Shown here piece by piece: positions 22,201 to 61,630 of a stretch of DNA of 64,000 bases (the stretch's first letter is position 1; every line of letters starts with the position of its first letter). Source of the DNA: Azolla caroliniana (taxonomy: Eukaryota; Plantae; Polypodiophyta); the NCBI GenBank assembly GCA_043228905.1, contig JBHGNT010000002.1:16926001-16990000 (forward strand). Reading direction: 5' to 3'. The notes beneath the pieces were generated by a model, which saw only the letters and a list, made by a program, of their open reading frames with translations, searched no databases and was not told where the DNA came from. The position numbers and the translations under genes are program-made.

Positions 22201-24324
22201 AAAGGGTATTACAATAGATCGGGCAATAGCAATTTGTTGTGCATGTAAGCCCCGCCCCATGGACTACGATCTCACCACCCTTGTCATCGACAAATAAAGG
22301 CCATTATTCTTTCTCCTCCACATTTATTCCACAATCTCGCCTCTCCATATTTCTATTTTGAATCTTTAAGGCAATTTGCACCTTATGCTTTGGCATATAC
22401 CTGCATATTGTTTTGTAATTTATAAATTTGTACACTTTATTGACTAGAATAAATTGAGAATGACATTAACGAAGTAGCTACAAATGAATTTATAATGTTT
22501 GAATGTGAATCGTACAGTATAAATAAATATGGGTCGAATTCGCCATTTCCTATGGGTCATGAAATGGTTTGTTCCTCCATTTTTTCACCATTTTCATTTC
22601 TACAATGGTGGAAAACTTGGACAATGAGTACAGGTGCAGTTCTAAGAACGACAAACATAATTGTGTAGTCTGACACTCCTGTAAATTTGACTTTGCTCTA
22701 TGGGTGGGAACTTGGCGACAATTTGGGAAGGACTTCAGGCATGATGATTGCCCACATGTTACAGAGCAAAGGCACTATTATGACCAGTGACTTTTATCCA
22801 ACAAATTTGTAGCTCCCAAAACAAAGGTACCCCATAGTTGCACTTGCGCCATCCAAATTGTTGACAATAATAGAGAGATGCTCATTGTTAGCATTCTTAA
22901 GCACCCCATGATATAATCTGGCTTGAGGTAGAATAGAAGGAATCATTCAGACCAGTGACTTGTATCCAACAAATTTGTAGCTCTCAAAACAAAGATACTC
23001 AAGATTTGCGCTTATGCCATCCAAATTGTTGACAAAATAGGGAGATACTCATTTCAATATAGCTGGGAGTGTCCACAATTGAGACATGACCATGGTTAAG
23101 AAAAGATCAATCCAGGCTTATAGTATTAAATTGATTATGACAGAACAAGGACCACCACCACACTGCAGCTCGGTAGGAAGATGGTCTTCTATGAGAATTT
23201 TGGCATGATGAATTTATCTGCAGGCCCTCTTATATGGATACACATCAATGACAAGCATTCCATAGTGTACAGGCTAGATTAGCACCTCTTCACATCAATT
23301 CAACACATGCAGATATACACACAAAGCTATGAAGGAACAGCACTACCAACTGTTACATCCAGACATGAAGTCAGACAAAACTATGTTTGCAATTATAATG
23401 GTTTTTTATGAAATAACTAGCAGATGCTAGTTGCATCTTCACATAAGTCTTTGGCCCAATCTGCAAGGTAATTTAATACAAGACTAACAATGCTTGGGAT
23501 TGATCTTGCAGGAAATCAAGAGACATAGAGAGAAGTTGACGGACAACTTTTCAGCCCATTAACCACATGAGAAAGGAACTCTCACAACCATCTTTGGCAG
23601 CAGCATCCCTCCCTCAACTATTTAGTGCTACACAAGTAGGTCCTCAACAACATAATTTTGAAGGGGCTACATTCAGTAGGGCTGACATTTTCTGTGCAAG
23701 TAGGCCACATACCCAGCACCCTTGTTACCAGCGGATCAAATTCATAATGATCCAACACCAAAGTTGCTCTCCTTCCATCTTGAATTAGAAAATGTTAAAA
23801 ATACATTGTGATGCCGAGGTTTTTGAGCTCTATACAACTTGGACCGATATCCGATCTAAATAACTGCACTGATCATGCCCGAACCAAATTAACTAGAATC
23901 ATGACTAAGCTCAAACAAATTCATCCAAACAAACAAGAAAAAATTCAGGGAAATTCATGTATAAGACGTCAAAAACTCTGGTTCCACATACTTGCTTACA
24001 CACATAAATACGTGAAGTCACCACCTCTTTTCCTTGAAGCGGATAAATGTTTGTATTAGGAAATAACCAGTCTTGTTCGCTGCATCATTCCTTTGTTCTA
24101 GGAGGACCAAACGTATCTTTGATCCGTTTAGCAGCGACATCAGTTCATGAAGGGGGAGAGGAAACAGAGGTACATGAAAACGACAAACTTTTGGAGATCT
24201 AAGGAAGAAGAACAAGAAAGAGAAGAGAAAGCGCGAAACAGATGAGGAAAAATACCTTGTTTTCAGGCTTAGACTTGATCTTTCGAAAGAGCGAGTCGCG
24301 ATCGAAGACATCTTCTGTACCCAT
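16159..24324 (-). CDS. AGD8: ADP-ribosylation factor GTPase-activating protein, AGD8/9/10 (ArfGAP2/3, Glo3) family; 7 exons, ~411 aa
   Basis: Exons 24256-24324 ([23 protein letters not shown]), 18742-18860 ([40 protein letters not shown] zinc finger), 18196-18646, 17841-18098, 16951-17073 ([18 protein letters not shown]), 16698-16805, 16159-16266 (..DLQDRIR*). All introns are GT-AG and phases join in frame. The symbol names the family only; AGD8/9/10 cannot be told apart here. Confidence 0.93.
16698..16805 (-). CDS. AGD8: ArfGAP exon 6
   Basis: [25 protein letters not shown] (second ISS motif). Confidence 0.9.
16951..17073 (-). CDS. AGD8: ArfGAP exon 5
   Basis: [24 protein letters not shown] (Glo3 motif). 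Confidence 0.92.
17392..17667. repeat. Three-copy ~93 bp tandem repeat in ArfGAP intron 4
   Basis: GTACGGGAATATTCAAACATAGTTTTTA..TAAGAGTACACATAAAGCTATGAAAATGCATTGA..GGTGGTTCA occurs three times. Confidence 0.9.
17841..18098 (-). CDS. AGD8: ArfGAP exon 4
   Basis: [24 protein letters not shown]; AG/GT borders; 86 codons. Confidence 0.88.
18196..18646 (-). CDS. AGD8: ArfGAP exon 3
   Basis: [41 protein letters not shown]. Confidence 0.93.
18742..18860 (-). CDS. AGD8: ArfGAP exon 2 (CxxC-x16-CxxC-like zinc finger, catalytic Arg)
   Basis: CFDC...CLDCSALHR; CAG acceptor, GTAAT donor. Confidence 0.93.
21643..22250 (+). mobile_element. Degenerate non-LTR (LINE) RT fragment in ArfGAP intron 1
   Basis: IVPILK..DP...[41 protein letters not shown] (RT domains 1-3). 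Confidence 0.85.
24256..24324 (-). CDS. AGD8: ArfGAP exon 1
   Basis: ATG at 24324; ends KPENK followed by donor GTATT; GA/CT-rich 5' region upstream. Confidence 0.85.
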
Positions 24325-30662: not shown

Positions 30663-31084
30663 TGTTGAGAAGCAAGCTCAACAAAGGTATGTGATGCTTA
30701 TTGAGAAATAAGCTATAGTAGTTATTAGCTAATTAGCTACTAGTGGACATAAAGGTGAAACAACTATTTAGCTACTGACAACTATTTAGCTATAGACAAC
30801 TAATTAGCTATTGACAGCTAATTAGCTGCATATATAAGTCACTTATGTACTTAGGTAAAAAGTAAGTTGTAGTAAGTAGAAGAGTGAGAGTAGTGTAGAG
30901 AGTAAGAACAGACAAACAGAAAACAAACGAGAGCAAGTTGAGCTCTGCGTGTAATGAAGTAGAAGTTTTTTGGACTGTGCAAAGGTAATTCTCCTTCCCC
31001 TTCCCCTTTCTGTCTTGAGGACTAAACGATCCAACACATCACGATCCGTTGTGCATACAGAAGAGTTGTAGCGCCTTCGTAACA
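30663..31084 (+). repeat. 5' LTR of Copia E
   Basis: TGTTGAGAAG...CGTAACA followed by a Met PBS. Confidence 0.93.
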
Positions 31085-34000
31085 TGGTATCAGAGCAGAG
31101 TTGCTCGTAAAGAAGATTAGAACAGTACAGAGATTTGAGAAGTCTGTTTCTGGTTGCTGATCTGAATCAGAGAGAGCTTTTTGTGAAGTTAACCCTAATT
31201 GAAAGAGAAAATGGTTGCAGAGAATGCAAGCCAAATAGTCACAGAAAAATTAGATAAAAACAATTTCCCGGCGTGGAAATTCAAAATGACAAACTTCCTT
31301 ATGGGGAAAGGATACTAGGATTATATTGAAGGAGACCTAGAAGAGGCTCCAGAGATCCCTGAAGAAAATGCATCTGCTGTACAGATAAAAGCATTTAAGG
31401 AATGGAACCAAGGGGCAAGAAACGTATTGCATTGGTTGTCACTTAGCATCTCGGATTTGATGCTTGGACACATATAGGATGCTATGCTTCCAAAAGAAGC
31501 TTAGGACAGTTTAGTAAAACTGTTTGCAGTGAATACAAAGGCAAGAAAGCTTCAGTTGAAGATTGAGCTAAATACCTTGGAAAAAGGTAAGATGTCAGTA
31601 AATGAGTATGCTCTAAAAATAAAGAGCATATGTGAATCACTTGCTTCTATTAATGTGAAGATAGAAGATGATGATAAGGTGAAAATATGCTTAAGAGGCT
31701 TAGGACATCAATACAAGAGTTTCAAAACATCTATTCTCACAAGGGATAATATCCCAAGTTTTCCAGATCTGGTTTCAATGCTTGTAGTAGAAGAAAGAAA
31801 TCAAATGGATGATGTAAACAAAGGAAATCCAGATAATGAGGGGCAAGCCCTCCACAATAGTGCTGGAAGAGGCCGAGGAAGAGGCCATGGAAGATTTGGT
31901 TCAGCTAGAACCAACAATAATTATCAAGGAAGAGGACAACAAGCCATTAGTGGAAGAAACAACATCAAAGGCAGGGGGAGCAATCAAGGAAGCGGTAAGC
32001 AAACCTATTTGAATGATGATGGTTGTTGGTCTTGTGGAAAACCAGGCCACACACAGGCTGAATGCTCTAAAAAGCAAAATGATGAGAAAAGAGGGAAGAG
32101 ACAACAAAATAATTATGCCTCAACTAGTGAAGACTGTGATAAAGATGGTGCATTTGTGATGCAAGATGAAACAACAGTAGTGGCTGAATGTTCACAGAGA
32201 TGTAATGAAGAGTTTATGTGGTATGTAGATTATGGGGCATCTAATCATATGACAGGACATAAAAACTGGTTTGAAAGTCTAAGAGAACCAAATATTCCTG
32301 GTTATGAACAAACAGGTGATAATACTACTCACCAAATAGAGCATGTTGGAGATATCCCATTGTGGGAAGAAAAAGGAAAAACAAAGTATATGTTGAATGT
32401 TATGCATGTTCCAAACCTTGCAAAAAATCTTATTTCTGTTGGAAAGATAGTAGAGCAAGGAATGCAGGTTAAGTTTAAGCAAAGTGGATGCTTCATAGAG
32501 AAAAATGAAAGCTCATTGCAAAAGGAAAACGAGAAGGAAGGATGTTTGTGTTAGATGTGGATATGCCTAAGAAGATTACAGTCATGTTTGCAGAAGGAAT
32601 GAGTGTAATCTCAGATGTGGAAATGTGGCATAAAAGAATCGGTCACATAAGCATGCAAACTTTGAAAAATATGTTGAGGAAAGATGTAGTGGCTGGACTG
32701 CCTAAGTTGAAAGACTGTGAGATGGGAGAAATATGTGAAGCATGTCAATATGGAAAGCAAAACAGGTGGCCTTTCCCTCATGAAAGACATGTAAGCCAAA
32801 ATTTGTTGGATTTGGTACATACAGATGTATGGGGACCAACAAAAAATGCATCAATTAGTGGATGTAAGTTTTATGTAACTTTCATTGATGATTGCTCAAG
32901 GAAAACATGGGTTTACTTCATGAAAGAAAAAAATGAAGTATTTGATTGTTTTTGTACGTTTAAATGCATGGTAGAAAAGCATGTTGGAACTAGAATAAAA
33001 TGCCTAAGATCTGATTGAGGAGGAGAATACTTCTCAAATGAGTTTTCTAAGATTCTATGTAATCAAGGGATAAGGAGACAGTTTACATGTAGATATACTC
33101 CACAACAAAATGGAGTTACTGAGAGAAAAAACAAAACTCTGGTGAACATAGCAAGAGCCATGATGACAGAAAAAATATGCCATTGTATTATTGGGCAGAA
33201 GCTGTAAACACAGCAAACTATATCCTAAATAGATGTATAACATCTGGAGTACATGAAGTAACTCCTGAAGAATGTTTCTATGGCAGAAAGCTGAGTTTAG
33301 GACACTTAAAAGTGTTTGGATGCCTTGCCTATGTCCATGTACCTGCTGAAGTGAGAAGTAAGCTTGATCCAAAAGCCGAAAAATGTAATTTTGTTGGATA
33401 TTCACAGGAGCAAAAAGGGTATAAATGCTATAACCCTTTGACAAAAAAGATTGTGGTAAGTCGGGATGTAATATTTGATGACTTGGGCAGCTGGTACAAC
33501 CCAAAACAAAATGTAGAAACTGATGAAGTCTATGAAAATGAAGATAGGGATAAATCTGAAAATGTAAGAGATAACCATAGAGATGGAAACAATGTTGGAC
33601 AACAAAGTTCCACATCAATGGAATGTACTGGACCATCTAGAAGCTCAGGTAGTAAATCTGAATCTAATGCATGGAGTGGAAAACATGCAAGACACAAAAA
33701 ATATGATGATAAAAAGGGAAAAGAGAAGATGCTAGAATATGAAATGCTTGATGATGGGTCTAGAAACATGGAAGATGAGCTTGGTATAGGAGCCTTGAAA
33801 ATCCCTAGTATGGAAAAAGCAACGAAGGATGCAAATCAGAAACTGAGAAGATCAGATAGAGAGAAAAAGACTGTTGAAAGATTTGGCTATGACACATATA
33901 TGGCTATGCATTATGCATACATGTCTAAAGTGGTACAAATCCCTGATCCATAGAACTTTGATGAAGCAAAAGCTGAGAAAAAATGGGTGAATGCAATGCA

Positions 34001-35426
34001 AGAAGAAATAGATGCATTGGCTAAAAACAGAACATGGGATTTGGTAAAGTTACCAAAAGGAAAAAATGTGGTAGGTTGCAAATGGGTGTACAAAACAAAG
34101 CATGATTCCAATGGAAATGTCAGTAGACATAAAGTAGGACTTGTGGCAAAGGGATATGCCCAAATGCACGGAATTGATTATGATGAAACATTTGCATCGG
34201 TTGCAAAGATGGCAACCTTGAGAACACTACTTGTTGTGAGTGCAGCCAAAAGATGGGTTCTGCACCATATGGATGTAAAAAATGTTTTTTTACATGGTAA
34301 CTTAGAAGAAGAAGTGTACATGTGTCAACCACCAGGTTTGGAAGATAGGAAGCATCCTGAATATGTTTGTAAGCTGAAAAAGGCTCTCTATGGACTGAAA
34401 CAAGCATCGAGAGCATGGCACAGAGAACTTTCAGAATCTCTGAAAAAATTTGCTTTCAAAATGTCAAAGGCTGATCCATCATTATATGTAAAGAAGATAA
34501 ATGATTGCATTGTTGTGATCTTGATATATGTTGATGATCTAATCATTGGAGGTGATTTTATGGAAGAGATAAGTAAGTTGAAGAAAAGTCTGGAAATGCA
34601 ATTTCAGATGAAGGATTTGGGAGATCTGAGATACTTTCTTGGCATTGAGATTATCAGATCTGAGAGTGGTATATATATGTTGCAAAGTGGCTAAGACTAA
34701 AGTGGCAAATAAATCAACCTAGCACGCCATCGTCTCGAAATCCATGACGATGGGCAAAGAAAAAACAATAAATACTCTAATAGATGATGGGCTAAAAAAG
34801 ATCAAGAATTAAGTAGACAATTACCTTAAACCGTTCCTAGAGAAAATTAATAAGGAAAACCCCAACACACATCCCAAAAACGGGGGCACAAGGACACACA
34901 AAACATCAAATTCATCCTCCATTGCCCCCACCTCCTTCTTAAGGACCCAGTCCTTTATCCCAAGTTATGGACAAAGCTATGCTTATCCCGTACCACCCAC
35001 ACAACCCATACCCCCCACGTACCCTATATTTGTCCTGATGAATGTACCACCACCTACCTCCCTACCCCCACCTATGAAACAATCAATGTCTCACTTTGAG
35101 ACCATCAAATCCACCACACGGTCCTATCCTCGACTCTCAATCCCTCGACCCCCAGTTCCACGACCCACGACCCACGACCCACGCCTTACCCCCGGCCCCC
35201 AGTCAAACAACCTACTCCTCATCCCCGGCCCCCGGGCCCCAGTCCCGCAACCCGCACCCAACACACGCACCACGGGACCGAAACTAAATCCTCTACTAGG
35301 AAAATATGTAGGGGTAGACTTAGAAAATTACATTGGTTCCCACTTCTTCAATCATTAACCTACCTCCACATTTTACTAGGAAGGCAAACACCCTCCCAGG
35401 TCAAGAATAGGATCACTAATCACTCA

Positions 35427-35691
35427 TTGCACAACCTTTCCTCTTTCCACCTTCCTCCACCCCAACTCAAACTTCTAAGCTTAGGTCTAGACTTTATTCC
35501 CCCACCCCAACCTATTAGAAAACAACAATTGATAGACGTCGTTGTATCCTTGGATAGAACTTACCGCCTCAGATATTTCTTTAGAAATTCTACTAACATT
35601 ATCTCTCCATTTAGAATATTGAACCCCAGTTGGAATCCCCCAACCGTGCCAAAAATCACACAAACCATCATATCTATCACCTCTGCCTTCT
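35427..35691 (+). pseudogene. PLE ORF N-terminal conserved region, truncated by the inverted pseudo-LTR
   Basis: NLS..L...LLSLGLDFIP...RLRYFF...SWNPP, typical of the region upstream of PLE RTs. Confidence 0.8.
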
Positions 35692-36715
35692 TAAGATTGC
35701 TTAAAGTGTGCGGCACTTCATCGGGGGTTGTTTGGGGTGGACTCAAGTTTAGATCTTATTTGTATGTCTAAACATAAGTAGTGATATAGTTTTAGAAGAA
35801 TAGAAAAGTGAGGGCGTGGGTGGGGTTAGGGGAGTGTAGCTTGTTGAAGATATCAAAAGTATTTAAACCTAATCAAAGTTTTTAGAACATATTAAAGATC
35901 ATTGGGACAACTTAAGTTATTAGACACCAATAAAGTATTATTAAAACACCAATATAGAGTATTATTACAACGGGACCACACGCTTAGATGAAAGGGAGTT
36001 GTTTAAACACATGCTTAAGCAAACACTTAAAAGAAAGATTGTTATAAAAATAAATAAAAATAAAAATAGAAAAGAGAGATTGAGATTAAAAAATGATTAT
36101 GGTTAAGAAGGGATTATGATTAAGGGGGAAGGGGTTGCTAAAACAAAGTACTTAAATGAATGTTTAAACAAATACTTAGATAAGAAAACACTTGGGCAAA
36201 CACTTAACGCAAGGTTATGATTAAAAGAGAAGGGAGGGATTATGGTTAAAGAAAAGGGGTCATGGCTAAGAAGAGAATGATTATGATTAAGAGAGGAGAA
36301 TACTTAAACAAATGTTTAAACAAAAAGTTAAACCTAAAAATGATTGAACAAGTACTTCAAAAAAAAGGGGTTAAACAAGTACGTAATAAAAATGATTATT
36401 AAACAAGTACTTAATAGAAAATGATTAAATAAATACTTAAGAACTTAAGACAAAAAAAAATTGATAAAAAAGTGATTAAACAAGTACTTAATAAAAATTG
36501 ATTAAATAAGTACTTAAGAACTTAAGACAAAAAATTAGATAAGAGCAACACATAGAAGGAAAGAAAGTTTTACTATCATAAGGCAACGAAGGCAAATGCA
36601 TTTCGCCTCGATGGAGGCTCTTCAGTGCCTGATGTACAAATGATCAATGGGTCTATGATATTGTTATAAGCCTACTAGGTTGCTCTTTTTATAGGGAGAG
36701 GGAGGAGAGTCCTTT
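35692..36715 (-). repeat. PLE pseudo-LTR, inverted copy
   Basis: Reverse complement of 43168-44103 with substitutions and indels. Confidence 0.92.
36590..36630 (-). ncRNA. Minimal type I hammerhead ribozyme with intact core
   Basis: AGGCA-CUGAAGA-GCCUC(CAUC)GAGGC-GAAA-UGCA-UU-UGCCU: 5-bp stem I, 5-bp stem II, palindromic minimal stem III. Confidence 0.85.
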
Positions 36716-37327
36716 CCAAACACCGCAACTACTCTACTACAAACGCCACATCGATGATGCCATAGGAGTTTGGGAAGGCTCCCCCGATATGCTTCACACC
36801 TTCTTACACCAATACGGCGTGCCTCTACAACAACACATCCGTATTGAATCAACAACCTCCCCTAAAGAGATCACCATCTTGGACGTCATCTTCTTCAAAG
36901 GCCCATACTTTAAAGAATTTGGCATCCTCGACACCGCATGCCACCAAAAACCTCTCAATGCCTACATGTAACTCCCGTGGAAATCCTCGCACCCCATAGC
37001 ACACAAAAAGGCTTCATCACGGGAGAACTAAAACGGTATGCTATCCGAGAGAGCTCGGAAAATGGCTACATGGAACTACGCAAAAAGTTCTACGACCACC
37101 TAAGAGCTAGGGGCTACCCGTCAAAGTTCCTACTCAAGTGTTTTTCGACTGTCCCCTACTCCATACGAAACCAACTACTCTCTAACCAACCCAACAACAA
37201 AAAACCTCCACCCATTGTTTTTAAGTTTTGTTACTCCCCATGTATCAAAAAACTCCAAATCGGAGCGCTCGTGAGAAACAAACTTAAACCCCTTCTAGGA
37301 CAACCACAATACAGTTCCCTTACACCC
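36716..37327 (+). pseudogene. PLE RT C-terminal half and thumb (continues at 43000-43071 after the Gypsy insertion)
   Basis: HIDD at the YxDD position; stop and frameshift near 36970-36995; frame restored across the CACCC TSD. Confidence 0.88.
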
Positions 37328-37757
37328 TGTCAGGAATAGTACTAAAACAGAGATGGAATTAGTACTAAGAAGAGTAGTACTATTAGTACTAAGAGGACGG
37401 GACTGCGTAAGATTCCCGAGAGAGAGGAAGTGAGAAGAGGAGAGAGAGAGAGAAAATAGGATGATGACAGCAGCTCTTATATTATATGAAAGATAAGTAC
37501 AAATCGACTAAGAGGCTTAAGACTGGTGTTGAACCAATTTGGTTCAACATAATGCTTAGTGCCTTCTTTTATAGTGTTCTCAGGAATAATCCTGAAGCTT
37601 CTAGAATGTTCCAGAGAAATCTGGAATATACATTACTTTCTTATAATAAAACATAAATGAAAATAATATTCTATGAATTACAATAGATGGTGAGATGGTT
37701 AAGAGCTCGACCCATATACCATAAGGTCATGGGTTCGAGTCTTGCCATCTCATGACA
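37328..37757 (-). repeat. 3' LTR of the chromovirus
   Basis: TGTCAGG...ATGACA; matches 42565-42994. Confidence 0.95.
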
Positions 37758-37768
37758 CTATCTCCCCC

Positions 37769-40700
37769 TTAAAGACGACGAGTGGAACGAGTCAGCGCTA
37801 CTTGCGGACCGGGTTTGTCCGGATACTTTCGGTGGAAATCAGCAAGAAGATCTTGTGCATTGGCAACATTTTCGACGGGTTCCCAAGTACGTTCGCTCGG
37901 ACTATAACCGAGCCAATCGACCAAGTAATAGAGTTTGTTGCGAACAAGTTTGGAATCGAGGATGGCAGCAACTTCATACTCTGGGCCGGCGTCCAACTCC
38001 AGTGGGGGCGGCGGTGGTGTCACACGATCGGGAATGGTGTTTGCTTTATAAGGTTCAAGAAGAGAACAATGGAAAACCGGATGTATCTGAAGCTGCGGAG
38101 GGAGATCAAGGCGGAAGGTGACATCATTAATCTTCCCCGTAATACGGAAAGGACCGAGTCGTCGATAATCCAACTTGTCGCACGGTCGAGTCGTCTTGAT
38201 GTGACGACGTAAGAGCCATACTCGATCTCCGATGGCAAAAGAGGAGGGAATCCGATGACGATCCGCATAAGTCTTCTGTGTGTGTTGAGCATGACGAAGG
38301 TGAGTAGAGAGATCCATCTGGATCTTGCGTAGCCTCTCCAAATGATCCTCGGCACGAGGGTTGGTAGGTAGCTCCGGAGTGTCGATCACCGACCAGCGAG
38401 GATGGAAACCGGTATAAGCGAAAAATGGGGAGACCCGAGTCGAGGAGTGAATAGCATTATTATACGCAAACTCCGCAAAGTGGAGAATCTCGGCCCAATC
38501 GTCCTGTTGATAACTCAGGAAACACCGGAGATATTGCTCCAGCGTTTGGTTTGTTCGTTCCGCCTGTCCGTCGGTCTGAGGATGGTAGCCGGAGGAGAGG
38601 TTGCAGGAGACCTTGAGCATCTTGAAGAGATGCTGCCAAAATTTGGAGACAAATTGCGGGCCTCGGTCACTGATAATACTGTCTGGGAGGCCATGATGCC
38701 GAAAAACCTCACGCATAACAAGAGCGGCGGTTTCCTCGCTAGTGATGGCTTTAGTACATGGCACAAAATGTGCCATCTTCGTATATCGATCGACGACGGT
38801 TAGGATAGCATCGAACCCTTTCGAGACCGGCAGATCTGTGATAAAATCAAGACAAATAGACTGCCATGGCTTACTTGGAATTGGTAAAGGTTCCAACAAG
38901 CCATATGGACGGTGTCGTGGCATCTTTGCTCGGCAGCAAGCATCACAGGTCCGAACGTAGTCGTCGACAAAACGGCGCATGTGGGGCCACCAAAAAGATC
39001 GCTGCACTAGCTCCAACGTCTTAGTACTACCGAAATGTCCCGCCGTATGGGTGTCGTGACAATGTTGGACAATTTGAAGGCGACAGGAGCAATCGGGGAC
39101 ATATACGCGCTTTTTAAAGAATAACAAACCATCATGATATTCGAATTGTCGGTAGTCAATACCTGGTTGTTGAGACTGAGAACAGGATGCCCGAGAAGTA
39201 TCAATGTGCGCCAGGATGTCTTGAGCAAAACTATCCGTCTTCAAGGTTGCACGTATGTCATCGGTAATCCGTGAATCCATCGGGGTGTGAAAAATCCGCG
39301 TCGTGTGCAATCGTGTTGGTCCCAAGATTACTTGCTTTTGATTATCAAATGTTGCTTCACCAGGACGAGGTGCAAGATATGAACGTCGTGATAGTGCATC
39401 TGCTTTTCCTTGCTGCTTCCCCGGTCGATATGTGATTTTGAAGTCGAAACGCGTGAGGAATTGCGCCCACCGAGCTTGCCGTCGATTTAGTACACGAGCG
39501 TTCTGAAAATAAGCAAGATTTTTATGATCGCTGAAGACAATGACCTGATGTGGAGAGCCCTCTAAGAAATGCCGCCATTGTACAAATGAATCCACGATGG
39601 CTAATAACTCCTTGTCATGTATTTCGTAGTTGATTTCTGCGACATCGAATTTGCGCGAATGGAAAGCCACCGGATGCAACTCTTCTTTATCACCTTGTTG
39701 AGAAAGGATGCTACCGAGGGCGAAATCTGATGCGTCGGCCTCCATGATGAATGGTTTGCTTGTATCCACATGAGCTAGAATCGGTGCTGATGTAAAGGCT
39801 TTCTTAAGATGCCGAAAAGCCATATCTGCTTCAATGGACCAAAGAAATGCTTGGCCCTTCTTTGTAAGTTGTGTGAGAGGTAAAATAATCTTCGAGTAAT
39901 CCTGTATAAACTTACGGTAGAAGTTAGCAAAACCTAGAAAACATTGTACATCTCGTACCGACCGTGGAATTTGCCACTCTAGTACAGTTTGGATCTTAGC
40001 TGGATCCATGGCGATGCCCTTTGAGGAGATGACGTAGCCTAGAAATTCCACTTGCTTGCAGTCAAAGCTACATTTTTCTAGCTTGGCATAAAGACCATTC
40101 TCGCGGAGTCGCTTTAGTACTAATAGTACATGAGAGTCGTGCTCTTCCTGGGTCTTCGAATAAATCAACAGATCATCCAGATAAATGATCAAACAGATAT
40201 CCAAGAGGTCTCTGAATATATCATTTGCCATGTGTTGGAAGACTGCGGGTGCATTGGTTAGGCCAAACGGCATAACAGTATACTCAAAATGCCCATACCG
40301 CGTGCGAAAAGCGGTCTTCCACTCATCTCCCGGTCGGATCCGCACGAGATTATACGCTCCGCGTAGGTCGATTTTAGTAAAAAACTTGGCACCATTAACT
40401 CGCTCTAAAAGACTTGATATAAGAGGAAGTGCATACCTATTCCGGATGGTGACTTTATTTAATCCGCGGTAATCAACGACAAGACGAAGTGAGCCATCTT
40501 TCTTCTTGACAAAGAAGATGGGTGCACCGGCCGGAGATTTCGAATGACGGATGAACCCGCTTGCCAAGTTCTCCTCTATGTAGGCTCGAAGGACTTCTAA
40601 CTCGGTGGGTGACAGGTTGTAAATTGGTCCCCATGGTGGCTCGGTTCCTGGTTGTAAATCGATGGGACAGTCATAGGGACGGTGATGAGGAAGGGTACCG

Positions 40701-41341
40701 GCTTTTACCTTGTCAAATACATCGGCATAAGGATGATATTTTGCCGGAAGTTGTACTGAGGAGTCCTTCTTAGTAGTGCTGGAAGGATGTACTGATATGG
40801 AAAATAGGAACATTGCCTCCTTGGGTCCTTCTTCGCGTAGTTGATGGAGTGAAATGGTCGAAACTCGGCGAGTTGATTCTTGGGGTGGTCGATATCGGAC
40901 TTCTCTTGTTCTCCAATCTATGGCTGGATTATGTAACTCAAGCCAAGGTAATCCTAGGACAATGGGATGCTCTGGACTACTAATTATATTAAATGATATT
41001 ATACACACAAAACTACCTAGGACAACTTGAATGGGTTCTGATTCTTCTACAATATTCCCGGAAGCAATGGGACGACCATCAATGACCACTACAGATGCGA
41101 GACAAGGAAGTTTTCTTAAGGATATCTGAGAAGCTTGGGCAAAATTTCGATCCATGAAACAGGAATTAGCTCCGGAATCTAAAAGTGCTAGGACGGGTAC
41201 TGGGGGAGTACTTTTAGTACTAACAATGACTTGGGCTAGGAACACATTGCTAACTTGCTTGGAAGGAATGGAACCACTAATGGGCTGTACAGATCTAGGG
41301 CTGCTGTCCAACCAAATGGCTCCTATTTTGGCTGGACTCAA
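37769..41341 (-). CDS. Chromovirus Pol (PR-RT-RNaseH-IN-chromodomain), probably made as Gag-Pol by -1 frameshift
   Basis: LLDSGA, YLDD, ADASDFALG, HCH...CDAC, DFITDLP, GQAERTNQ, GPF, EYEVAAILDSK..YYLVDWLGY..TWEP. Confidence 0.96.
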   Translation of the reverse strand: MSPAKIGAIWLDSSPRSVQPISGSIPSKQVSNVFLAQVIVSTKSTPPVPVLALLDSGANSCFMDRNFAQASQISLRKLPCLASVVVIDGRPIASGNIVEESEPIQVVLGSFVCIISFNIISSPEHPIVLGLPWLELHNPAIDWRTREVRYRPPQESTRRVSTISLHQLREEGPKEAMFLFSISVHPSSTTKKDSSVQLPAKYHPYADVFDKVKAGTLPHHRPYDCPIDLQPGTEPPWGPIYNLSPTELEVLRAYIEENLASGFIRHSKSPAGAPIFFVKKKDGSLRLVVDYRGLNKVTIRNRYALPLISSLLERVNGAKFFTKIDLRGAYNLVRIRPGDEWKTAFRTRYGHFEYTVMPFGLTNAPAVFQHMANDIFRDLLDICLIIYLDDLLIYSKTQEEHDSHVLLVLKRLRENGLYAKLEKCSFDCKQVEFLGYVISSKGIAMDPAKIQTVLEWQIPRSVRDVQCFLGFANFYRKFIQDYSKIILPLTQLTKKGQAFLWSIEADMAFRHLKKAFTSAPILAHVDTSKPFIMEADASDFALGSILSQQGDKEELHPVAFHSRKFDVAEINYEIHDKELLAIVDSFVQWRHFLEGSPHQVIVFSDHKNLAYFQNARVLNRRQARWAQFLTRFDFKITYRPGKQQGKADALSRRSYLAPRPGEATFDNQKQVILGPTRLHTTRIFHTPMDSRITDDIRATLKTDSFAQDILAHIDTSRASCSQSQQPGIDYRQFEYHDGLLFFKKRVYVPDCSCRLQIVQHCHDTHTAGHFGSTKTLELVQRSFWWPHMRRFVDDYVRTCDACCRAKMPRHRPYGLLEPLPIPSKPWQSICLDFITDLPVSKGFDAILTVVDRYTKMAHFVPCTKAITSEETAALVMREVFRHHGLPDSIISDRGPQFVSKFWQHLFKMLKVSCNLSSGYHPQTDGQAERTNQTLEQYLRCFLSYQQDDWAEILHFAEFAYNNAIHSSTRVSPFFAYTGFHPRWSVIDTPELPTNPRAEDHLERLRKIQMDLSTHLRHAQHTQKTYADRHRIPSSFAIGDRVWLLRRHIKTTRPCDKLDYRRLGPFRITGKINDVTFRLDLPPQLQIHPVFHCSLLEPYKANTIPDRVTPPPPPLELDAGPEYEVAAILDSKLVRNKLYYLVDWLGYSPSERTWEPVENVANAQDLLADFHRKYPDKPGPQVALTRSTRRL

Positions 41342-42495
41342 TCGTTTAACTCTTCATCTAATTGACTAAGGATTTCAAATTTATTTGAGATACTTGGGCT
41401 ATTAGTACTATGAATACTATCTGACACTCTATTAGTACTATTACTACTATCAGACACTCCGAAGGGAAGAATTGACTCAGGTTTAGTACAGGCGACAATT
41501 TGATTTACCTGTCTTCTTGGCCTATGGGGACAATTGATGGCGATATGTCCTGGTCCACCGCAATAAAGGCATAATCGATTGGCACATCGTCGTTGCTTTT
41601 CTTCTTCCGATAACGGGCCGCGTCGACGCATGGTATCGATCTCCATCGGTGTTGAAGTATTTGCTTGAGGTATGTCTCGTGCAAACGGTTTAGCCGCGAC
41701 TGCGGCGTAAGTGGGCTCTGGCCTAGAGCGTGGTATCTGTAATTGACGTTCTGAACGCCGTTCAAAAAGGCGGTTGTCACATCGAACTGCTCGACTGATT
41801 GCCTCCGTAAGAGACTTTGGTTCTTCGGGGAAAGTTAGAAGTAGATCTTTGACATCGTTTCGCAAGCCATAGCGAAACTGCTCCATTAGTGCTTGATCAT
41901 CCCAGGGTATATCTGAAGCAAGTAGGCGGAAATCCGCCGCGTAGGCAGAGGCTGGACGATCGCCTTGACGCAATCGCCGGATCTTGTTGATCGCCGTCCT
42001 GATGCTGTCGGTGTCTCCAAAGCAGGCTTTAAACTCACCAATAAAATCTTCAAAGTTATTAAGCAAGGGCGATTGTTTTTCTAGAAGCGGAGCGAACCAT
42101 GCCAAGGCTGAGCCGCTAAGTAGCGTGCCTATTAGGCCGACTCGAGATGCATCAGTGGGATATCGGGAAGGATGCATCTGGATGACTAAGCGTACCTGAT
42201 TAAGGAATCCCCGAAATTGCGAACGCGTTCCATCAAATTTCACAGGAAGTCCAATCTTGGGCTCTTTATGAAATCCTTGGGGACTGGATCCTTGTTGTTG
42301 CAACGCTGCTTCGAGTTGTTGTACCCGTAACGCTAACTCCCCATGTTGTTGTTGCGTTTGTTGTTTTTCTAGAGCGATTTGTTGCAGATCCCCTATCAGC
42401 CGTTGGTTTTCTTGTTCCAAGGCAACAAACTTTTCTTTTAGGCACTGTAGCTCGGAGAAAACGGATTGGTATTCTTGGGCGCTAACAGTAGCCAT
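41338..42495 (-). CDS. Chromovirus Gag
   Basis: PVKFDGTRSQFRGF, LRQG..AYAADFR, PMEID, and CLYCGGPGHIAINC zinc knuckle. Confidence 0.95.
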   Translation of the reverse strand: MATVSAQEYQSVFSELQCLKEKFVALEQENQRLIGDLQQIALEKQQTQQQHGELALRVQQLEAALQQQGSSPQGFHKEPKIGLPVKFDGTRSQFRGFLNQVRLVIQMHPSRYPTDASRVGLIGTLLSGSALAWFAPLLEKQSPLLNNFEDFIGEFKACFGDTDSIRTAINKIRRLRQGDRPASAYAADFRLLASDIPWDDQALMEQFRYGLRNDVKDLLLTFPEEPKSLTEAISRAVRCDNRLFERRSERQLQIPRSRPEPTYAAVAAKPFARDIPQANTSTPMEIDTMRRRGPLSEEEKQRRCANRLCLYCGGPGHIAINCPHRPRRQVNQIVACTKPESILPFGVSDSSNSTNRVSDSIHSTNSPSISNKFEILSQLDEELND

Positions 42496-42564
42496 AGTAT
42501 AGGGGAAAGGGTAGGAGGATGAGGGAGAGTGACAAGTAGGCTAGAGGAAGAAATTGGTTCAAAC

Positions 42565-42994
42565 TGTCAGGAATAGTACTAAAACAGAGATGGAATTAGT
42601 ACTAAGAAGAGTAGTACTATTAGTACTAAGAGGACGGGACTGCGTAAGATTCCCGAGAGAGAGGAAGTGAGAAGAGGAGAGAGAGAGAGAAAATAGGATG
42701 ATGACAGCAGCTCTTATATTATATGAAAGATAAGTACAAATCGACTAAGAGGCTTAAGACTGGTGTTGAACCAATTTGGTTCAACATAATGCTTAGTGCC
42801 TTCTTTTATAGTGTTCTCAGGAATAATCCTGAAGCTTCTAGAATGTTCCAGAGAAATCTGGAATATACATTACTTTCTTATAATAAAACATAAATGAAAA
42901 TAATATTCTATGAATTACAATAGATGGTGAGATGGTTAAGAGCTCGACCCATATACCATAAGGTCATGGGTTCGAGTCTTGCCATCTCATGACA
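42565..42994 (-). repeat. 5' LTR of the chromovirus
   Basis: Matches 37328-37757; TATAAAA on the minus strand at 42804-42810. Confidence 0.95.
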
Positions 42995-43167
42995 CACCCC
43001 CTCTCACGTGTTGGCTAAATGGTAAACAACTAAGAAACCACCTAGTACACTCATCCTTTCCCCCCACCTAATGTTTTGTGTACTCTCACCCCTCTTAACC
43101 CCCACCTAAAGTCTTGTGTACACTCTTTTACCTTTCCTTTGTACACACTTTTGTATGTCCCACATAC

Positions 43168-44103
43168 AAAGGACTCTCCTCCCTCTCCCGATATAAAGAG
43201 CAACCTAGTAGACTTAATTTTCATCATGTGTACATCGGGCACTAAAGAGCCTCCATCGAGGCGAAATGCATTTGTCAATCGTTGCCTTATGATAGTAAAA
43301 CTTTCTTTCCTTCTATGTGTTGCTCTTATCTAATTTTTTGTCTTAAGTTCTTAAGTACTTATTTAATCAATTTTTATTAAGTACTTGTTTAATCACTTTT
43401 TTGTCAAATTTTTTTGTCTTAAGTTTTTAAATATTTATTTAATCATTTTTTATTAAGTACTTGTTTAACCCCTTTTTTTAAGTACTTGTTCAATCATTTT
43501 TTTATCTAACTTTTTGTTTAAACATTTGTTCAAGTATTCTCCTCTCTTAATCATAATCATTCTCTTCTTAGCCATGACCCCTTTTCTTTAATCATAATCC
43601 CTCCCTTCTCTTTTAATCATAACCTTGCTTTAAGTGTTTTCCCAAGTGTTTTCTTATCTAAGTATTTGTTTAAACATTCATTTAAGTACTTTGTTTTAGC
43701 AACCCCTTCTCCCTTAATCATAATCCCTTCTTAACCATAATCATTTTTTAATCTCAATCTTTTTTTTAAAAAATAATAATCTTTCTTTTAAGTGTTTGTT
43801 TAAGTGTGTATTTAAGCAACTCCCTTTCATCTAAGCGTGTGGTCCCATTTTAATAATACTCTATTGGTGTCTAATAACTTAAGTTATCCCAATGATCTTT
43901 AATATGTTCTAAAAACTTTGATTAGGTTTAAATACTTTTGATATCTTCAACAAGCTACACTCCCCTAACCCCCACCCATGCCCTCACTTTTCTATTCCCC
44001 TAGAACTATATCACTACTTAGGTTTAGACATACAAATAAGATCTAAACTTGAGTCCACCCCAAACAACCCCCGATGAAGTGCCGCTCACTTTAAGCAATC
44101 TTA
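43168..44103 (+). repeat. PLE pseudo-LTR / 3' UTR, sense copy
   Basis: Starts ~100 bp after the RT stop; T-rich with AAGTACTT and TTAATCATAA subrepeats; inverted match to 35692-36715. Confidence 0.92.
43238..43276 (+). ncRNA. Hammerhead ribozyme copy with G5A core mutation, probably inactive
   Basis: GGCA-CUAAAGA-GCCUC(CAUC)GAGGC-GAAA-UGCA-UU-UGUC. Confidence 0.75.
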
Positions 44104-44941
44104 TAAAAGTATGGTATGCTTGGATGCAAACCTATTGGTATACCACTAGATAAGAATTGCAAATTGAGGGTTGATTTGGGAGCCAAAATAGAAGATGTAA
44201 ACATGTAGAGGTTTATGGTGAGCAGCCTCGTATATTTGACCATAACAAAACCTGAATTGAGTTATCTTGTTGGATTAGTCAGCCAGTTTATGCAACAACC
44301 AACAAAGCCGCATTTGGACTGCATAAGAAGAATTATGAGGTATGTAAAAGCTACCCAAAACTATGGGCTGTTTTACAGGGCTGATCTGGACATAAAGCTA
44401 GAAGGATATACAAATGTTGATTGGGCTGGAAGCCAAACTGACAGAAGATCCACAAGTGGATATATGTTTACATTGGGAAGTGCAACTATTTCATGGAGTA
44501 GCAAGAAACAAGCTACTATTGCATTGTCAAGTACTGAAGCTGAGTATAGAGGAGCTGCAATAGCTACATGTGAAGAGGTATGGATCAGAAGATTGCTTTT
44601 TGATTTGGGAGAATATATAGATGGTGCTGTCACAATTTGATGTGACAATATGAGCAACATTCAGCTGGCAAAAAACCCTGTGTTCCACGCAAGAACAAAG
44701 CACATTGAAGTGCATTATCACTTTGTTAGAGAAAAAGTGATTGATGGAGAAGTGGATCTATTATATGTAAGTACAAATTAGCAAGTTGTTGATATTCTTA
44801 CGAAGGGATTGAGCATGGAAAAACATACACAGTTTAGAGACATGATGGGAGTTATAACCATCGGCATGGTAGTTGAAAAGCATGAAGAAAAGAAGATTGA
44901 AGATGACCTCAAGGAAGGATAAGTTGAGCTTGAGGGGGGAG

Positions 44942-45345
44942 TGTTGAGAAGCAAGCTCAACAAAGGTATGTGATGCTTATTGAGAAATAAGCTATAGTAG
45001 CTATTAGCTAATTAGGTACTAGTGGACATAAAGGTGAAACAACTATTTAGCTACTGACAGCTAATTAACTATTGGCAACTAATTAGCTGCATATATAAGT
45101 CACTTATGTACTTAGGTAAAAAGTAAGTTGTAGTAAGTAGAAGAGTGAGAGTAGTGTAGAGAGTAAGAACAGACAAACAAAAAACAGACGAGAGCGAGTT
45201 GAGCTCTGCGTGTAATGAAGTAGAAGTTTTTTGGATTGTGCAAAGGTAAGTCTCCTTCCCCTTCCTGTTTCTGTCTTGAGCACTAAACGATCCAGCACAT
45301 CACAATCCGTTCTGCACACAGAAGAGTCGTAGCGCCTTCGTAACA
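44942..45345 (+). repeat. 3' LTR of Copia E
   Basis: Follows the PPT; followed by TSD TGACT. Confidence 0.93.
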
Positions 45346-46189
45346 TGACTTGGGGCATGCATCAAGCCGTAAGATTCTTCTTGACTCAACAAACTAGACG
45401 TTCTTGGCTGGGTATCACGAAGCCTTTCAACTATTCCATATAAATTTCCTCCTCTAGATCACCATGGAGGAAGGCCATCTTGACATCTAAATCTTTAGCG
45501 ACTACAACGTTGAGCAAAAGTCGACGCCATATTCTGGTCCGAAACCCTTTGCAACCAATCTGGGCTTTGAATTTAGGACTTGCCGAATTAGATGTCTCTT
45601 TTAGGCGCTAGACCCACTTGCACAGAAGAGCACGTGAGTTTTCTGGCAATTCGACGAAGTCCCATGTCTAATTATGCCAAATGGAGTTCATTTCGGACTC
45701 CATAGCTAGATGCCAATTGGCCGAATAGACACATGCTGACGATTCTTCATACGACGTCGGCTCATCGACATCCATGAAAAAGAGTCCAAAAGAGTATCTC
45801 TCTGGAGGCCAAGACAATCGTTCGGATCTGCGTGGGATGACTAAGCTCACTAGATCATCACTGATGATCATTTCCTCGGTTATTGTACCCGATTCACCAT
45901 GTGGAGAGCTCCTTAACATTCTCTCTAAGATAACTTGTTTAGGAGTATTGACAACTACCATATTGTGTTCCATGCAGGCCACTTGCCAGGTGGCCACTCT
46001 CGTGTTTTAGATTGGGCCATCGAGAAGAGTTGGAACATTCGGAAAGGATACTCTTCTAACTTCAGTTGGCCTTTTCGGGTGCCTTGTGCATTGTTGACTC
46101 ATTGAAAACAACGTTTAGACGACTTGTCTGTTTTTAGGATCCCAGAGTCGGGAGCCAAAGTTGTCATCTGGTTCGTAACCAAGGAAAAT

Positions 46190-60127: not shown

Positions 60128-61630
60128 ATGGCTCGTCATCAAGCTTCCTCTCTCCTCAAGGGCCTCACCCTCCTCTCCCCGTCTTATTCCTCCTCCTCCT
60201 CCTCCTCTCCTTCTTCTCCTTCCTTATTGCCTTCTTTCTACTCCTTGATCTCTTCCAGAGCCATGTCCCGCCTCTTCGTCGGTGGCCTCTCCTTCACAAC
60301 CGAAGAGGAAGGCCTGCGCACTGCCTTCAGCAAATTCGGAGAGGTGATCGACGCGAAGGTAGTGAAAGATCGAGAAACCGGAAGATCCAGAGGCTTCGGA
60401 TTCGTGACGTTCATGGAGGACAAAGAGGCGGAGGAGGCGATGAACAAGATGAGTGGCCAATTCTTGGACGGGCGGGTTGTGCGCGTAGACAAGGCGGCGG
60501 CCCGCCCGCCCCCGCCGCCCCGTCCCCCCATGAATCTATCAGTCGATAACATGAACAGCAGTATGGGCGAACCCCCTGTGGCAGAAGATTGGGGAAGTAT
60601 ACCTTCCACCATGGCTGCAGTCCCACAAAACCTCGGTTTGTACGCATCCACAACATCCTCACCCTCACCCTCTGGGCCTGGACATGATGCTGCCTCAGCT
60701 TTGCCAGACTTGAGCACCTTAACATCGTCAGGTTTTCCAAGTAATGGCACTGGCGGCGGAGGAGTAGGAGGATCCGCCATCTCTAATAGCGGGATTAGTC
60801 TCAATGATTCTTCGTCTTTCCCCAATAGTAGCACTAGTAACAATAGTCTGGGGTTTTCAAGTAATGACACTAGTAGAGGTAATCTTCCTTTCTCAACTAC
60901 TAATGTTAACAGCAGTGGTTCATCCCCTTCTACGTTTAGTTTTGATTCTTCACCTCCCACAAAAGCTTCTACTAAGGACACTGGTCCAAGCTTTGGATTC
61001 ATTGATTTGGACTTGAGCAACTTGCCGCCGCCAGATCCAAACCATGTCCCCAGGCGCCGCCCCCCTCGCATTCGGCCCAGTAGTATGGGTGACTATGAGT
61101 TTGGTTACTATATGTCCGAAACCTCAAAGTTCCCTTTCAATACTAATTTTGAGACTGGCATTCCGAGATCGTCGAGTTCCATGTTTGATTTCGAGTTTGC
61201 TGATATTAAGGAAGCAAATGCGATCAAGAAGGCAGAGTGGTTGGCAATAAAGCAAGCCAGAGAGGCTGAGGAAGCGGCAAAGAAAGCCGAGGAAGAAGCC
61301 ATTAAGAAGGCGAAGGAAGATGAAGAAGAAGCCATTAAGAAGGCAAAGGAAGATGAAGAAGCAGCAATTAAAATCGCCAATGACGAAGCTATCAAGCAAT
61401 CGAAAGAAGAAACCAATGAATCGGTAACGGATCCAGTGAGTGTCGAACAGCAGATGGTATCAGATGGAGGTATAGGTGTGAAAGAGAAGAGTGAGGAAGA
61501 AGATGATAAGAAACCCCAAGAGAGCTCTCTACCTTCACAAAATGCTACAACCATAGGATTGTCTCAAGAATCACCTCAAACAAAGGTGTCAGAGGAAGCA
61601 AAACCTGAAGCCCAACAATGTGCTTGTTAA
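60128..61630 (+). CDS. Single-RRM RNA-binding protein (GR-RBP/ORRM-like) with probable organellar transit peptide and long low-complexity tail
   Basis: Ser/Leu/Arg-rich N-terminus without acidic residues; RNP2 LFVGGL; RNP1 RGFGFVTF; Pro/Ser-rich linker; EEEAIKKAKED repeats; single 500-aa ORF. Confidence 0.88.
   Translation: MARHQASSLLKGLTLLSPSYSSSSSSSPSSPSLLPSFYSLISSRAMSRLFVGGLSFTTEEEGLRTAFSKFGEVIDAKVVKDRETGRSRGFGFVTFMEDKEAEEAMNKMSGQFLDGRVVRVDKAAARPPPPPRPPMNLSVDNMNSSMGEPPVAEDWGSIPSTMAAVPQNLGLYASTTSSPSPSGPGHDAASALPDLSTLTSSGFPSNGTGGGGVGGSAISNSGISLNDSSSFPNSSTSNNSLGFSSNDTSRGNLPFSTTNVNSSGSSPSTFSFDSSPPTKASTKDTGPSFGFIDLDLSNLPPPDPNHVPRRRPPRIRPSSMGDYEFGYYMSETSKFPFNTNFETGIPRSSSSMFDFEFADIKEANAIKKAEWLAIKQAREAEEAAKKAEEEAIKKAKEDEEEAIKKAKEDEEAAIKIANDEAIKQSKEETNESVTDPVSVEQQMVSDGGIGVKEKSEEEDDKKPQESSLPSQNATTIGLSQESPQTKVSEEAKPEAQQCAC

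What the first reader, a model, noticed from the sequence alone, without database searches (positions are those of the whole stretch)
36590..36630. Minimal hammerhead ribozyme in the pseudo-LTR of a land-plant Penelope-like element
Seen: the minus strand reads AGGCA CUGAAGA GCCUC-CAUC-GAGGC GAAA UGCA UU UGCCU. This gives a complete CUGANGA/GAAA core, perfect 5-bp stems I and II, and a 2-bp stem III around the palindrome UGCA, with predicted cleavage after AUU. It lies near the 5' edge of the pseudo-LTR. Established: PLE pseudo-LTRs carry such minimal type I hammerheads, which are thought to cleave as dimers through the palindromic stem III. Inference: this family processes its RNA by self-cleavage. 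I know of few described cases in vascular plants.
Basis: partly seen in the sequence, partly recalled or inferred. Interest (0 to 1): 0.85.

Follow-up and report, generated by a model that had tools for sequence, protein, structure and literature searches.

The report
Hammerhead ribozyme in fern endonuclease-less retrotransposon
This is a real, conserved hammerhead RNA motif, predicted to cut itself only in pairs, lying just after a likely promoter in a fern jumping gene that has no DNA-cutting enzyme; the kind is known from spikemoss, but here the element sits inside another transposon rather than at a chromosome tip.

Summary
Confirmed. The minus strand 36630-36590 has a complete type I hammerhead core, 5-bp stems I and II and the palindrome AUGCAU; none of 300 shuffled windows matched as well. 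It lies in an inverted, 5'-truncated 3' end of a Penelope-like element (PLE) in a fern. An intact family member (L001) has ORF1 plus a telomerase-like RT and no GIY-YIG endonuclease; its RT groups with Selaginella, conifer and Ginkgo proteins, so it is probably Coprina-type. Of 20 close relatives, 16 carry the motif on the RT's sense strand, always with a palindromic stem III, an NUU triplet and a TATA-like box 37-52 nt upstream. Corrections: the fifth stem I pair is private to this copy; in Cervera 2014's terms the motif is canonical, not minimal; the only partner here (43237-43277) is on the other strand and has G5A, so this copy is likely a fossil. Best model: paired cleavage releases a unit-length RNA; no cleavage was tested. 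New member of a known kind. The notable twist is non-telomeric, TSD-less insertion without an endonuclease, with the ribozyme about 0.85-0.9 kb from the 3' end.

The parts
36590..36630 (-). Type I hammerhead motif with intact core, AUGCAU palindrome (36601-36596) and AUU triplet
36687..36693 (-). TATA box, 68 nt upstream of C3 here (52 nt in L001; this copy has a net 16-nt insertion at about 36648-36667)
35688..36715 (-). Inverted, 5'-truncated 3' arm of the PLE (L001 4234 to the 3' end, 96% identical); joined head-to-head to the RT piece through 4 nt of microhomology at 36712-36715
35692..35776 (-). Conserved 3'-terminal motif (long hairpin, AC-rich spacer, short hairpin with CGCAC.C.TT); copies end just after it
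34690..35687 (+). PLE piece: end of ORF1 and start of the RT ORF (L001 1634-2664), broken by stops and frameshifts
36712..37327 (+). PLE piece: RT motif 5 to thumb (L001 3449-4065), broken; L001 2665-3448 is absent from the window
37328..42994 (-). Young Gypsy LTR retrotransposon inserted in the PLE; LTRs 100% identical over 432 nt, 5-bp TSD
42995..44104 (+). PLE 3' part: RT ORF end (stop 43069-43071, no C-terminal endonuclease) and 3' repeat to the terminal motif
43237..43277 (+). Second hammerhead copy, degenerate: G5A in the core, two transitions in stem I, altered TATA box
30663..45347 (+). Host Copia element (LTRs 30663-31086 and 44942-45347, K2P 0.049), interrupted in its RT at about 34687/44105 with no TSD

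Best explanation
The motif is the family-conserved type I hammerhead of an endonuclease-less, probably Coprina-type Penelope-like element of a fern, and it likely cuts only when two copies pair through the stem III palindrome, which would release a unit-length RNA from a transcript that is predicted to start just upstream of the first copy. Shown: the motif; its place about 170 nt after the RT stop on the sense strand; a TATA box upstream; a defined 3' terminus about 0.85-0.9 kb downstream; no endonuclease in the intact element. Inferred: in a pLTR-ORF1-RT-pLTR copy, transcription starts some 5-20 nt before the core, so the RNA holds two hammerheads; each one's stem I 5' strand pairs with the other's 3' strand and the palindromes form a 6-bp stem III; cutting at both AUU sites gives an uncapped unit RNA, which may be ligated to a circle; the RT primes at a free DNA 3' end, starts at the terminal motif and copies through an uncut or religated hammerhead, so genomic copies keep it intact. 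This particular copy is likely a fossil: a probably later 5'-truncated insertion in reverse orientation into an older PLE copy, with no same-strand partner.
For: Chance control. 16 of 20 loci with RT identity >=40% hold the motif; the 4 without have under 280 nt of 3' flank or a truncated RT. All 41 scanner hits and all 44 model hits in 78 loci are on the RT's sense strand. In those 16 loci stem III is always a 6-nt palindrome, of four different sequences, with an NUU triplet. On 19 chosen rows 92% of cells pair against 60% shuffled, and 12 of 13 pairs change on both sides. The TATA-to-hammerhead block is the identity peak between L001 and L003 (0.88-0.93 against 0.48-0.70 downstream); low-depth contigs match only 36591-36629 and diverge on both sides. 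TATA-like box 37-52 nt upstream in 14 of 14 loci scanned, 12 with TATAWAW, background 1.8%; L012 and L013 show it too. Closing A15.1-U16.1 in a monomer costs 5.7 kcal/mol; the double hammerhead scores -30.3 against -27.2 for two monomers. The dimer and circle models are from Cervera 2014.
Against: No cleavage or RNA evidence here. The cofold MFE (-33.3) is an over-paired inactive dimer, lower than the active one. In the anole PLE the ribozyme cut only with the PLE protein, mutants still inserted in vitro, and no RNA-seq reads ended at the cut site. Only 1 of 9 Xenopus dimers cleaved. The two repeats of L003 are only 80% identical, so that tandem is not one rolling-circle product. The covariation rows were picked by a scanner that requires stems, so one search is partly circular. 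The 20 close loci come from one series of assemblies and include near-duplicates, so they stand for fewer than ten independent families. The start site is predicted only.
Confidence: 0.6

Rival explanations
1. The hammerhead is a protein-assisted switch rather than the maker of the template: binding of the element's own protein lets it cut near the 5' end, removing the cap and ending translation, while uncut RNA serves as template.
For: Anole PLE: cleavage needs the PLE protein and is dispensable for insertion in vitro. The motif lies within about 20 nt of the predicted start. Both window arms and the loci keep the hammerhead upstream of the 3' terminus, so the template is not left cut there.
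Against: The palindrome is kept through four different sequences, which points to RNA-RNA pairing; the two models are not exclusive.
Confidence: 0.25
2. As in Terminons, the ribozyme fold forms the 3' end and exposes a telomere-complementary stretch, and the family lives at chromosome tips; internal copies are strays or relics of old chromosome ends.
For: Relatives have CCCTAAA repeats at the 3' junction: L017 runs into 9 units where L011 goes on into ORF1; L003 has single units; one low-depth contig in each of two runs continues into such repeats. This is the described behaviour of EN- PLEs.
Against: Those repeats follow the CGCAC motif, 170-910 nt downstream of the hammerhead, not the ribozyme. 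The window has no run of 2 or more telomeric units and holds host genes. Both window 3' junctions are non-telomeric, L002 lacks the stretch, and the other 3 listed loose ends at the terminus are non-telomeric (7 rows not shown).
Confidence: 0.1
3. The motif is a relic or passenger with no cutting role; it is conserved as part of the promoter and 5' UTR.
For: It sits in the promoter block; Naiad and most Chlamys PLEs spread without canonical hammerheads; the second window copy is dead.
Against: Compensatory changes in all three stems and an invariant core across RTs about 30-45% identical are not expected of a DNA promoter.
Confidence: 0.05

Closest known systems
EN-minus PLEs of Selaginella moellendorffii (Coprina Sm1/Sm2) with canonical type I hammerheads (Cervera and de la Pena 2014, PMC4209133, parts 1-2 of 4 read; Sm1/Sm2 named as Coprina in PMC13159263, passages)
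   Same: No endonuclease; type I hammerhead in the terminal repeat; the RT shares the GTAMGSNFAVVYAC stretch with row 'Selagine1' of Craig 2021 Fig. S1 (compared by eye) and groups with a Selaginella protein at SH-aLRT 99.
   Different: Fern host; internal insertion without telomeric repeats; hammerhead far from the 3' end; two ORFs. The Selaginella motif itself is in a figure I could not see, so whether its stem III is palindromic is unchecked.
Metazoan PLE hammerheads with a short palindromic helix III, and min-HHRs (Cervera 2014)
   Same: Type I topology, unstable palindromic helix III, proposed dimer cleavage.
   Different: Min-HHRs have no helix III, a 7-8 bp helix II and an extra base after A9; none of these applies here. 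Most of those hosts have a C-terminal GIY-YIG domain.
Athena/Terminon elements (PMC6431247, passages)
   Same: EN-minus PLE RT, separate upstream ORF, hammerhead; 7 of 13 loci examined show a slippery site before the ORF1 stop.
   Different: There the telomere-complementary stretch lies immediately downstream of the ribozyme; here it is 170-910 nt away or absent.
Conifer EN(-)PLEs and Dryads (listed in PMC9033089, passages; Lin 2016 itself not held)
   Same: Cryptomeria and Ginkgo proteins fall in the same RT clade.
   Different: Dryads are EN+ Penelope/Poseidon; I saw no description of hammerheads or insertion sites for the conifer EN- elements.
PLE-X of Chara and Selaginella (Craig 2021, PMC8557442, section 9, passages and supplement parts read)
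   Same: EN-minus, hammerhead-bearing, non-telomeric PLEs in streptophytes: the precedent for internal spread without an endonuclease.
   Different: PLE-X are Chlamys-clade with a CxC motif and an insertion in fingers, and target 28S rDNA in Selaginella; the RT here shows neither feature and the listed PLE-X hammerheads differ.

Membership tests
Type I hammerhead ribozyme | Core CUGANGA, GAAA, NUH with stem I open | tested here: met
Type I hammerhead ribozyme | Stems I and II supported by covariation | tested here: met
   (rows pre-selected for stems); core-only search agrees
Type I hammerhead ribozyme | Match to an Rfam hammerhead model | tested here: not met
   none at E<=5 in 34600-45000
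Type I hammerhead ribozyme | Self-cleavage after NUH | not testable with these tools
   needs in vitro transcription
min-HHR (Cervera 2014) | No helix III or loop 3; long helix II; extra base after A9 | tested here: not met
   4-nt insert in a 6-nt palindrome, 5-bp helix II, no extra base
Dimer-type (palindromic stem III) hammerhead | Palindrome kept across relatives; stem III unstable in a monomer | tested here: met
   16 of 16 close loci with a motif; energies
Dimer-type (palindromic stem III) hammerhead | Second intact copy on the same transcript at this locus | tested here: not met
   only partner is on the other strand with G5A; L003 has two same-strand copies
Penelope-like element | PLE-type RT with DK(G/N) motif, core motifs and thumb | tested here: met
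   P0001 and alignment A1; PF00078 on many homologues; Pfam scan of P0001 itself gave no hit
Penelope-like element | 5' truncation, partial tandems, inverted 5'-truncated copy | tested here: met
   described in Craig 2021
EN+ PLE (Penelope/Poseidon/Dryad, Neptune, Nematis, Naiad, Chlamys, Hydra) | GIY-YIG endonuclease at either end | tested here: not met
   RT ORF ends after the thumb; 0 of 227 homologues match a GIY-YIG-like pattern; no such Pfam hit in 5 upstream ORFs
Coprina (EN-minus PLE) | RT falls in the Coprina clade | tested here: inconclusive
   groups with a Selaginella protein in a quick tree and shares a motif with 'Selagine1' by eye; no named Coprina, Athena or Penelope sequence was in my tree
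Coprina (EN-minus PLE) | Attachment to telomeric repeats | tested here: inconclusive
   not met at this locus; met in relatives L017 and two low-depth contigs; no genome map
Coprina (EN-minus PLE) | Telomere-complementary stretch adjacent to the hammerhead | tested here: not met
   170-910 nt apart or absent
Coprina (EN-minus PLE) | Optional ORF1 with frameshift and pseudoknot | tested here: inconclusive
   overlapping ORF1 in the same frame relation in 13 of 13 loci; slippery heptamer plus stem in 7 of 13, none in frame in L001-L003

The most novel reading that the evidence does not exclude
A fern lineage of telomerase-like, endonuclease-free PLEs has left the telomeres and spread to high copy number inside chromosomes by priming at ordinary DNA breaks (no TSD, target deletions, microhomology joins). 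It splits the jobs that Terminons join: a TATA-hammerhead cassette at the very start of the transcript makes a unit-length circle by paired cleavage, and a separate 3' hairpin motif up to 0.9 kb away sets where reverse transcription starts. The clade reaches lycophytes, ferns, Ginkgo and conifers and could be the source of plant hammerhead circles.
Probability: 0.3. Interest if true: 0.65.

Novelty: new member of a known kind. Interest (0 to 1): 0.35.

Why it matters
Hammerheads in PLE repeats, including a vascular plant, have been known since 2014, so the motif alone is ordinary. What this family adds is a compact test system: intact two-ORF copies exist (L001-L003), the palindrome covaries across the clade, and the ribozyme is separated from the 3' priming end. 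It makes two open questions testable: what PLE hammerheads do in vivo, and how an element with no endonuclease inserts away from telomeres. My searches found no paper on fern PLE hammerheads, but the library lacks Gladyshev 2007, Lin 2016 and Repbase.

Tried and rejected
No whole genome is held, so copies could not be counted or mapped. Rfam gave only two irrelevant weak matches. Pfam found nothing in the four broken PLE pieces or in P0001-P0003. No RNA holder was listed; this is no evidence on expression. ORF1 gave no usable Atlas hit and only sub-threshold Pfam hits. PDB sequence search gave only weak RT matches, E>=0.002. A second UGCCU 10 nt downstream can sequester the core in this copy but is absent from L003 and L004, so I rejected it as a conserved switch. 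The 3' motif resembles a hammerhead start (CCGAUGA) but has no GAAA and showed no compensatory pairs in 6 rows: not called a ribozyme. Its possible pairing with the hammerhead 5' strand did not carry over to distant families (by eye). The 16 extra bases in the arm had no 14-nt match elsewhere in the window, L001 or L002. The careful tree did not finish; the quick tree is cited. Run X1 laid nothing on L002 230-470. Contig depth (about 370-1700 at the hammerhead against 4-70 for minor variants) suggests many copies but is not a copy number. Lin 2016 is not held; one Cervera supplement file was not searchable and figures are not held; bioRxiv supplements are closed. No earlier finding matched P0001 by sequence.

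Full report
Observation. The bare core pattern is common (12 matches, shuffled mean 7.3), but my descriptor with stems finds this site alone in the window, and 300 dinucleotide shuffles gave no hit with stems I and II of 5 bp and a palindrome, and one with a 4-bp stem I. Stems I and II are in the predicted fold, z -2.3. Rfam does not recognise it. The '2-bp stem III' would close a 2-nt loop; what is there is the hexamer palindrome AUGCAU, with predicted cleavage after AUU between 36595 and 36594.

Host and setting. An ArfGAP exon in the window is closest to Ceratopteris and Adiantum proteins (61-65% identity, 182-198 bits; the next named plant has 136 bits), so the host is a fern. The window has host genes and no run of two or more telomeric units. 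A Copia element (LTR K2P 0.049) is interrupted in its RT at about 34687 and resumes at about 44105; against a paralogue 89% identical, some 22-26 bp are missing and there is no TSD. Between lie four PLE pieces, mapped on the intact contig L001: 34690-35687 (+, L001 1634-2664), 35688-36715 (-, L001 4234 to the 3' end, with the finding), 36712-37327 (+, RT motif 5 to thumb) and 42995-44104 (+, ORF end and 3' repeat). A Gypsy element with identical LTRs and a 5-bp TSD splits the last two. Both arms end at the same family position; the inverted arm joins the RT piece head-to-head by 4 nt of microhomology, and 784 bp of the RT gene are absent. The second hammerhead (43237-43277, +) has G5A and two transitions in stem I. 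The inverted arm has fewer private changes than the other pieces (9 of 841 columns against 69 of 2589, Fisher p 0.005; against the right arm alone 9/841 and 19/815, p 0.056; C>T or G>A 2 against 11, p 0.012). I read it, at about 65%, as a later insertion into an older copy; one complex event is the alternative, and inverted 5'-truncated neighbours are a described PLE structure (Craig 2021, passages).

The element. The RT piece found P0001, 577 aa and 97% identical. Its 655 homologues at E<=0.001 (best 120 listed) are mostly about 600 aa; named ones are from Cryptomeria, Selaginella, Ginkgo and Closterium. In 32 aligned proteins the DK(N) motif, RT core and thumb are conserved and all but one truncated row end shortly after the thumb. 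None of 227 homologues matches a GIY-YIG-like pattern, and five upstream ORFs have no such Pfam hit. L001 holds a 654-aa ORF1 overlapping the RT ORF; 7 of 13 loci have a slippery heptamer and a stem at that junction, but not L001-L003. In a quick 68-row tree the family sits in a 32-row clade (SH-aLRT 99) with the Selaginella, Ginkgo and Cryptomeria proteins. By eye it shares GTAMGSNFAVVYAC with row 'Selagine1' of Craig 2021 Fig. S1 and with no other row there. No named Coprina sequence was in the tree, so membership is probable, not shown.

Conservation of the ribozyme. One search kept the best 80 of 409 confirmed stretches, as 78 loci. My scanner found 41 motifs and a covariance model built on 19 rows found 44 in 39 loci, every one on the RT's sense strand (18 loci were training rows). 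Among the 20 loci with RT identity of 40% or more, 16 have the motif; the other four have under 280 nt of 3' flank or a truncated RT. All 16 have a hexamer palindrome (AUGCAU, ACUAGU, ACCGGU or ACAUGU) and an NUU triplet. On the 19 rows 92% of cells pair (shuffled 60%), 12 of 13 pairs change on both sides and all 57 palindrome cells pair; I chose these rows from scanner hits with a 4-nt insert and left out long-stem-III, 2-nt-insert and duplicate hits, so the count is partly circular. The close loci come from one series of assemblies and include near-duplicates. Contigs of four runs from three organism labels list one core-region change, in one contig of depth 11; the deepest contigs have G, not A, at the first stem I base, so the fifth pair is private to this copy; several minor contigs match only 36591-36629. 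Stem I continues past a bulge in relatives. In Cervera 2014 (parts 1-2 of 4 read) this shape is the canonical type I, and Selaginella PLE motifs are called canonical; min-HHRs lack helix III.

Position. The core lies about 170 nt after the RT stop. A TATA-like box stands 37-52 nt upstream in 14 of 14 loci scanned (12 TATAWAW, 2 variants that my pattern admitted; background 1.8%), 68 nt in this copy because of a 16-nt insertion. From the usual plant spacing of about 30 nt (recalled) the start would be 5-20 nt before the core. The 3' terminus is separate: a hairpin and a CGCAC.C.TT motif, found at 14 places in 13 of the 21 loci searched, 170-910 nt downstream of the hammerhead. Contig cover falls away just after it and both window arms end there. 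CCCTAAA repeats follow it in L017 (9 units), L003 and one low-depth contig in each of two runs, but not in L002, in the window junctions or in the other three listed loose ends. In Terminons the telomeric stretch is immediately downstream of the ribozyme (PMC6431247, passages); that is not met here.

Mechanism. In one molecule the A15.1-U16.1 pair costs 5.7 kcal/mol; the double hammerhead is 3.1 kcal/mol below two monomers, although an over-paired inactive dimer is 3.0 lower still. A transcript from an upstream repeat would carry two copies, one at its very start. Paired cleavage would give an uncapped unit RNA, possibly a circle, and the RT would start at the 3' motif and pass through the hammerhead, as Cervera 2014 proposed and as fits the internal initiation shown for the anole PLE (Frangieh 2024, parts 1-2 of 4 read). 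That paper also gives the main counter-evidence: cleavage needed the protein, was dispensable for insertion in vitro, and left no read ends in RNA-seq. One of nine Xenopus dimers cleaved (bioRxiv 10.64898/2026.07.22.740005, passages). I put 0.6 on paired cleavage as the family's mechanism, 0.25 on a protein-assisted cap-removal switch, 0.1 on the Terminon model and 0.05 on a relic. This copy has an intact core and TATA box but no same-strand partner and points into antisense of ORF fragments; it could act only in trans, and I give that about 0.15.

Prior work and verdict. EN-minus PLEs are listed for Selaginella, pine and spruce (PMC9033089, passages); Coprina are described as near-telomeric and low in number (PMC13159263, passages); EN-minus, hammerhead-bearing, non-telomeric PLE-X are known from Chara and Selaginella. 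Searches gave no paper on fern PLE hammerheads; Lin 2016 was not held, Gladyshev 2007 and Arkhipova 2017 were seen only as cited, and figures and one supplement were not visible, so the Selaginella motif could not be compared. Two unchecked AI notes on this genome agree and are not counted as evidence. Verdict: a real motif, a new member of a known kind, interest 0.35. The part worth following is insertion away from telomeres without an endonuclease, and the split between a promoter-proximal ribozyme and a distant 3' priming motif.

Noticed in passing
window 35692-35776 (-) and about 44020-44104 (+); L002 248-337; L003, L004, L007-L009, L011-L015, L017, L020: Conserved 3'-terminal motif CGCAC.C.TT with hairpins; copies end just after it and telomere-like repeats follow it in some relatives. 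Candidate start site for reverse transcription.
   Followed up: partly
L007-L009, L011, L013, L016, L018, L020, ORF1/RT junction: Slippery heptamer A AAA AAC 10 nt before the ORF1 stop, followed by a conserved GC-rich stem in these loci: a likely -1 frameshift signal, not seen in frame in the window's own family.
   Followed up: partly
L001 368-2332: 654-aa ORF1 with a helical middle and a proline-rich tail; no family hit in Pfam or the Atlas.
   Followed up: partly
window 37328-42994: Gypsy element with 100% identical LTRs, long gag (400 aa) and pol (1194 aa) frames and a 5-bp TSD: very recent insertion.
   Followed up: partly
L039, L044, L046, L047, L050, L053, L054, L056, L069: Distant RT relatives from other metagenomes carry type I hammerheads with a long, stable stem III (monomer type), as described for protist and fungal PLEs.
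   Followed up: no
L016 5497-5803; L075 920-1146: Two hammerhead copies 257 and 176 nt apart on one strand; in L016 the second has a changed core.
   Followed up: no
L009, L011-L015, L017: Runs of CCCTAA/CCCTAAA inside the upstream ORFs of related families.
   Followed up: no
window 36648-36667: Net 16-nt insertion between the TATA box and the hammerhead, private to this copy, source not found.
   Followed up: partly
window 60128-61630 (+): Single long ORF with an RRM domain followed by a serine-rich region and a charged tail; looks like an intronless RNA-binding protein gene.
   Followed up: no
window 21616-22296: LINE-like RT fragment; 22165-22296 also matches the flank of L003.
   Followed up: no
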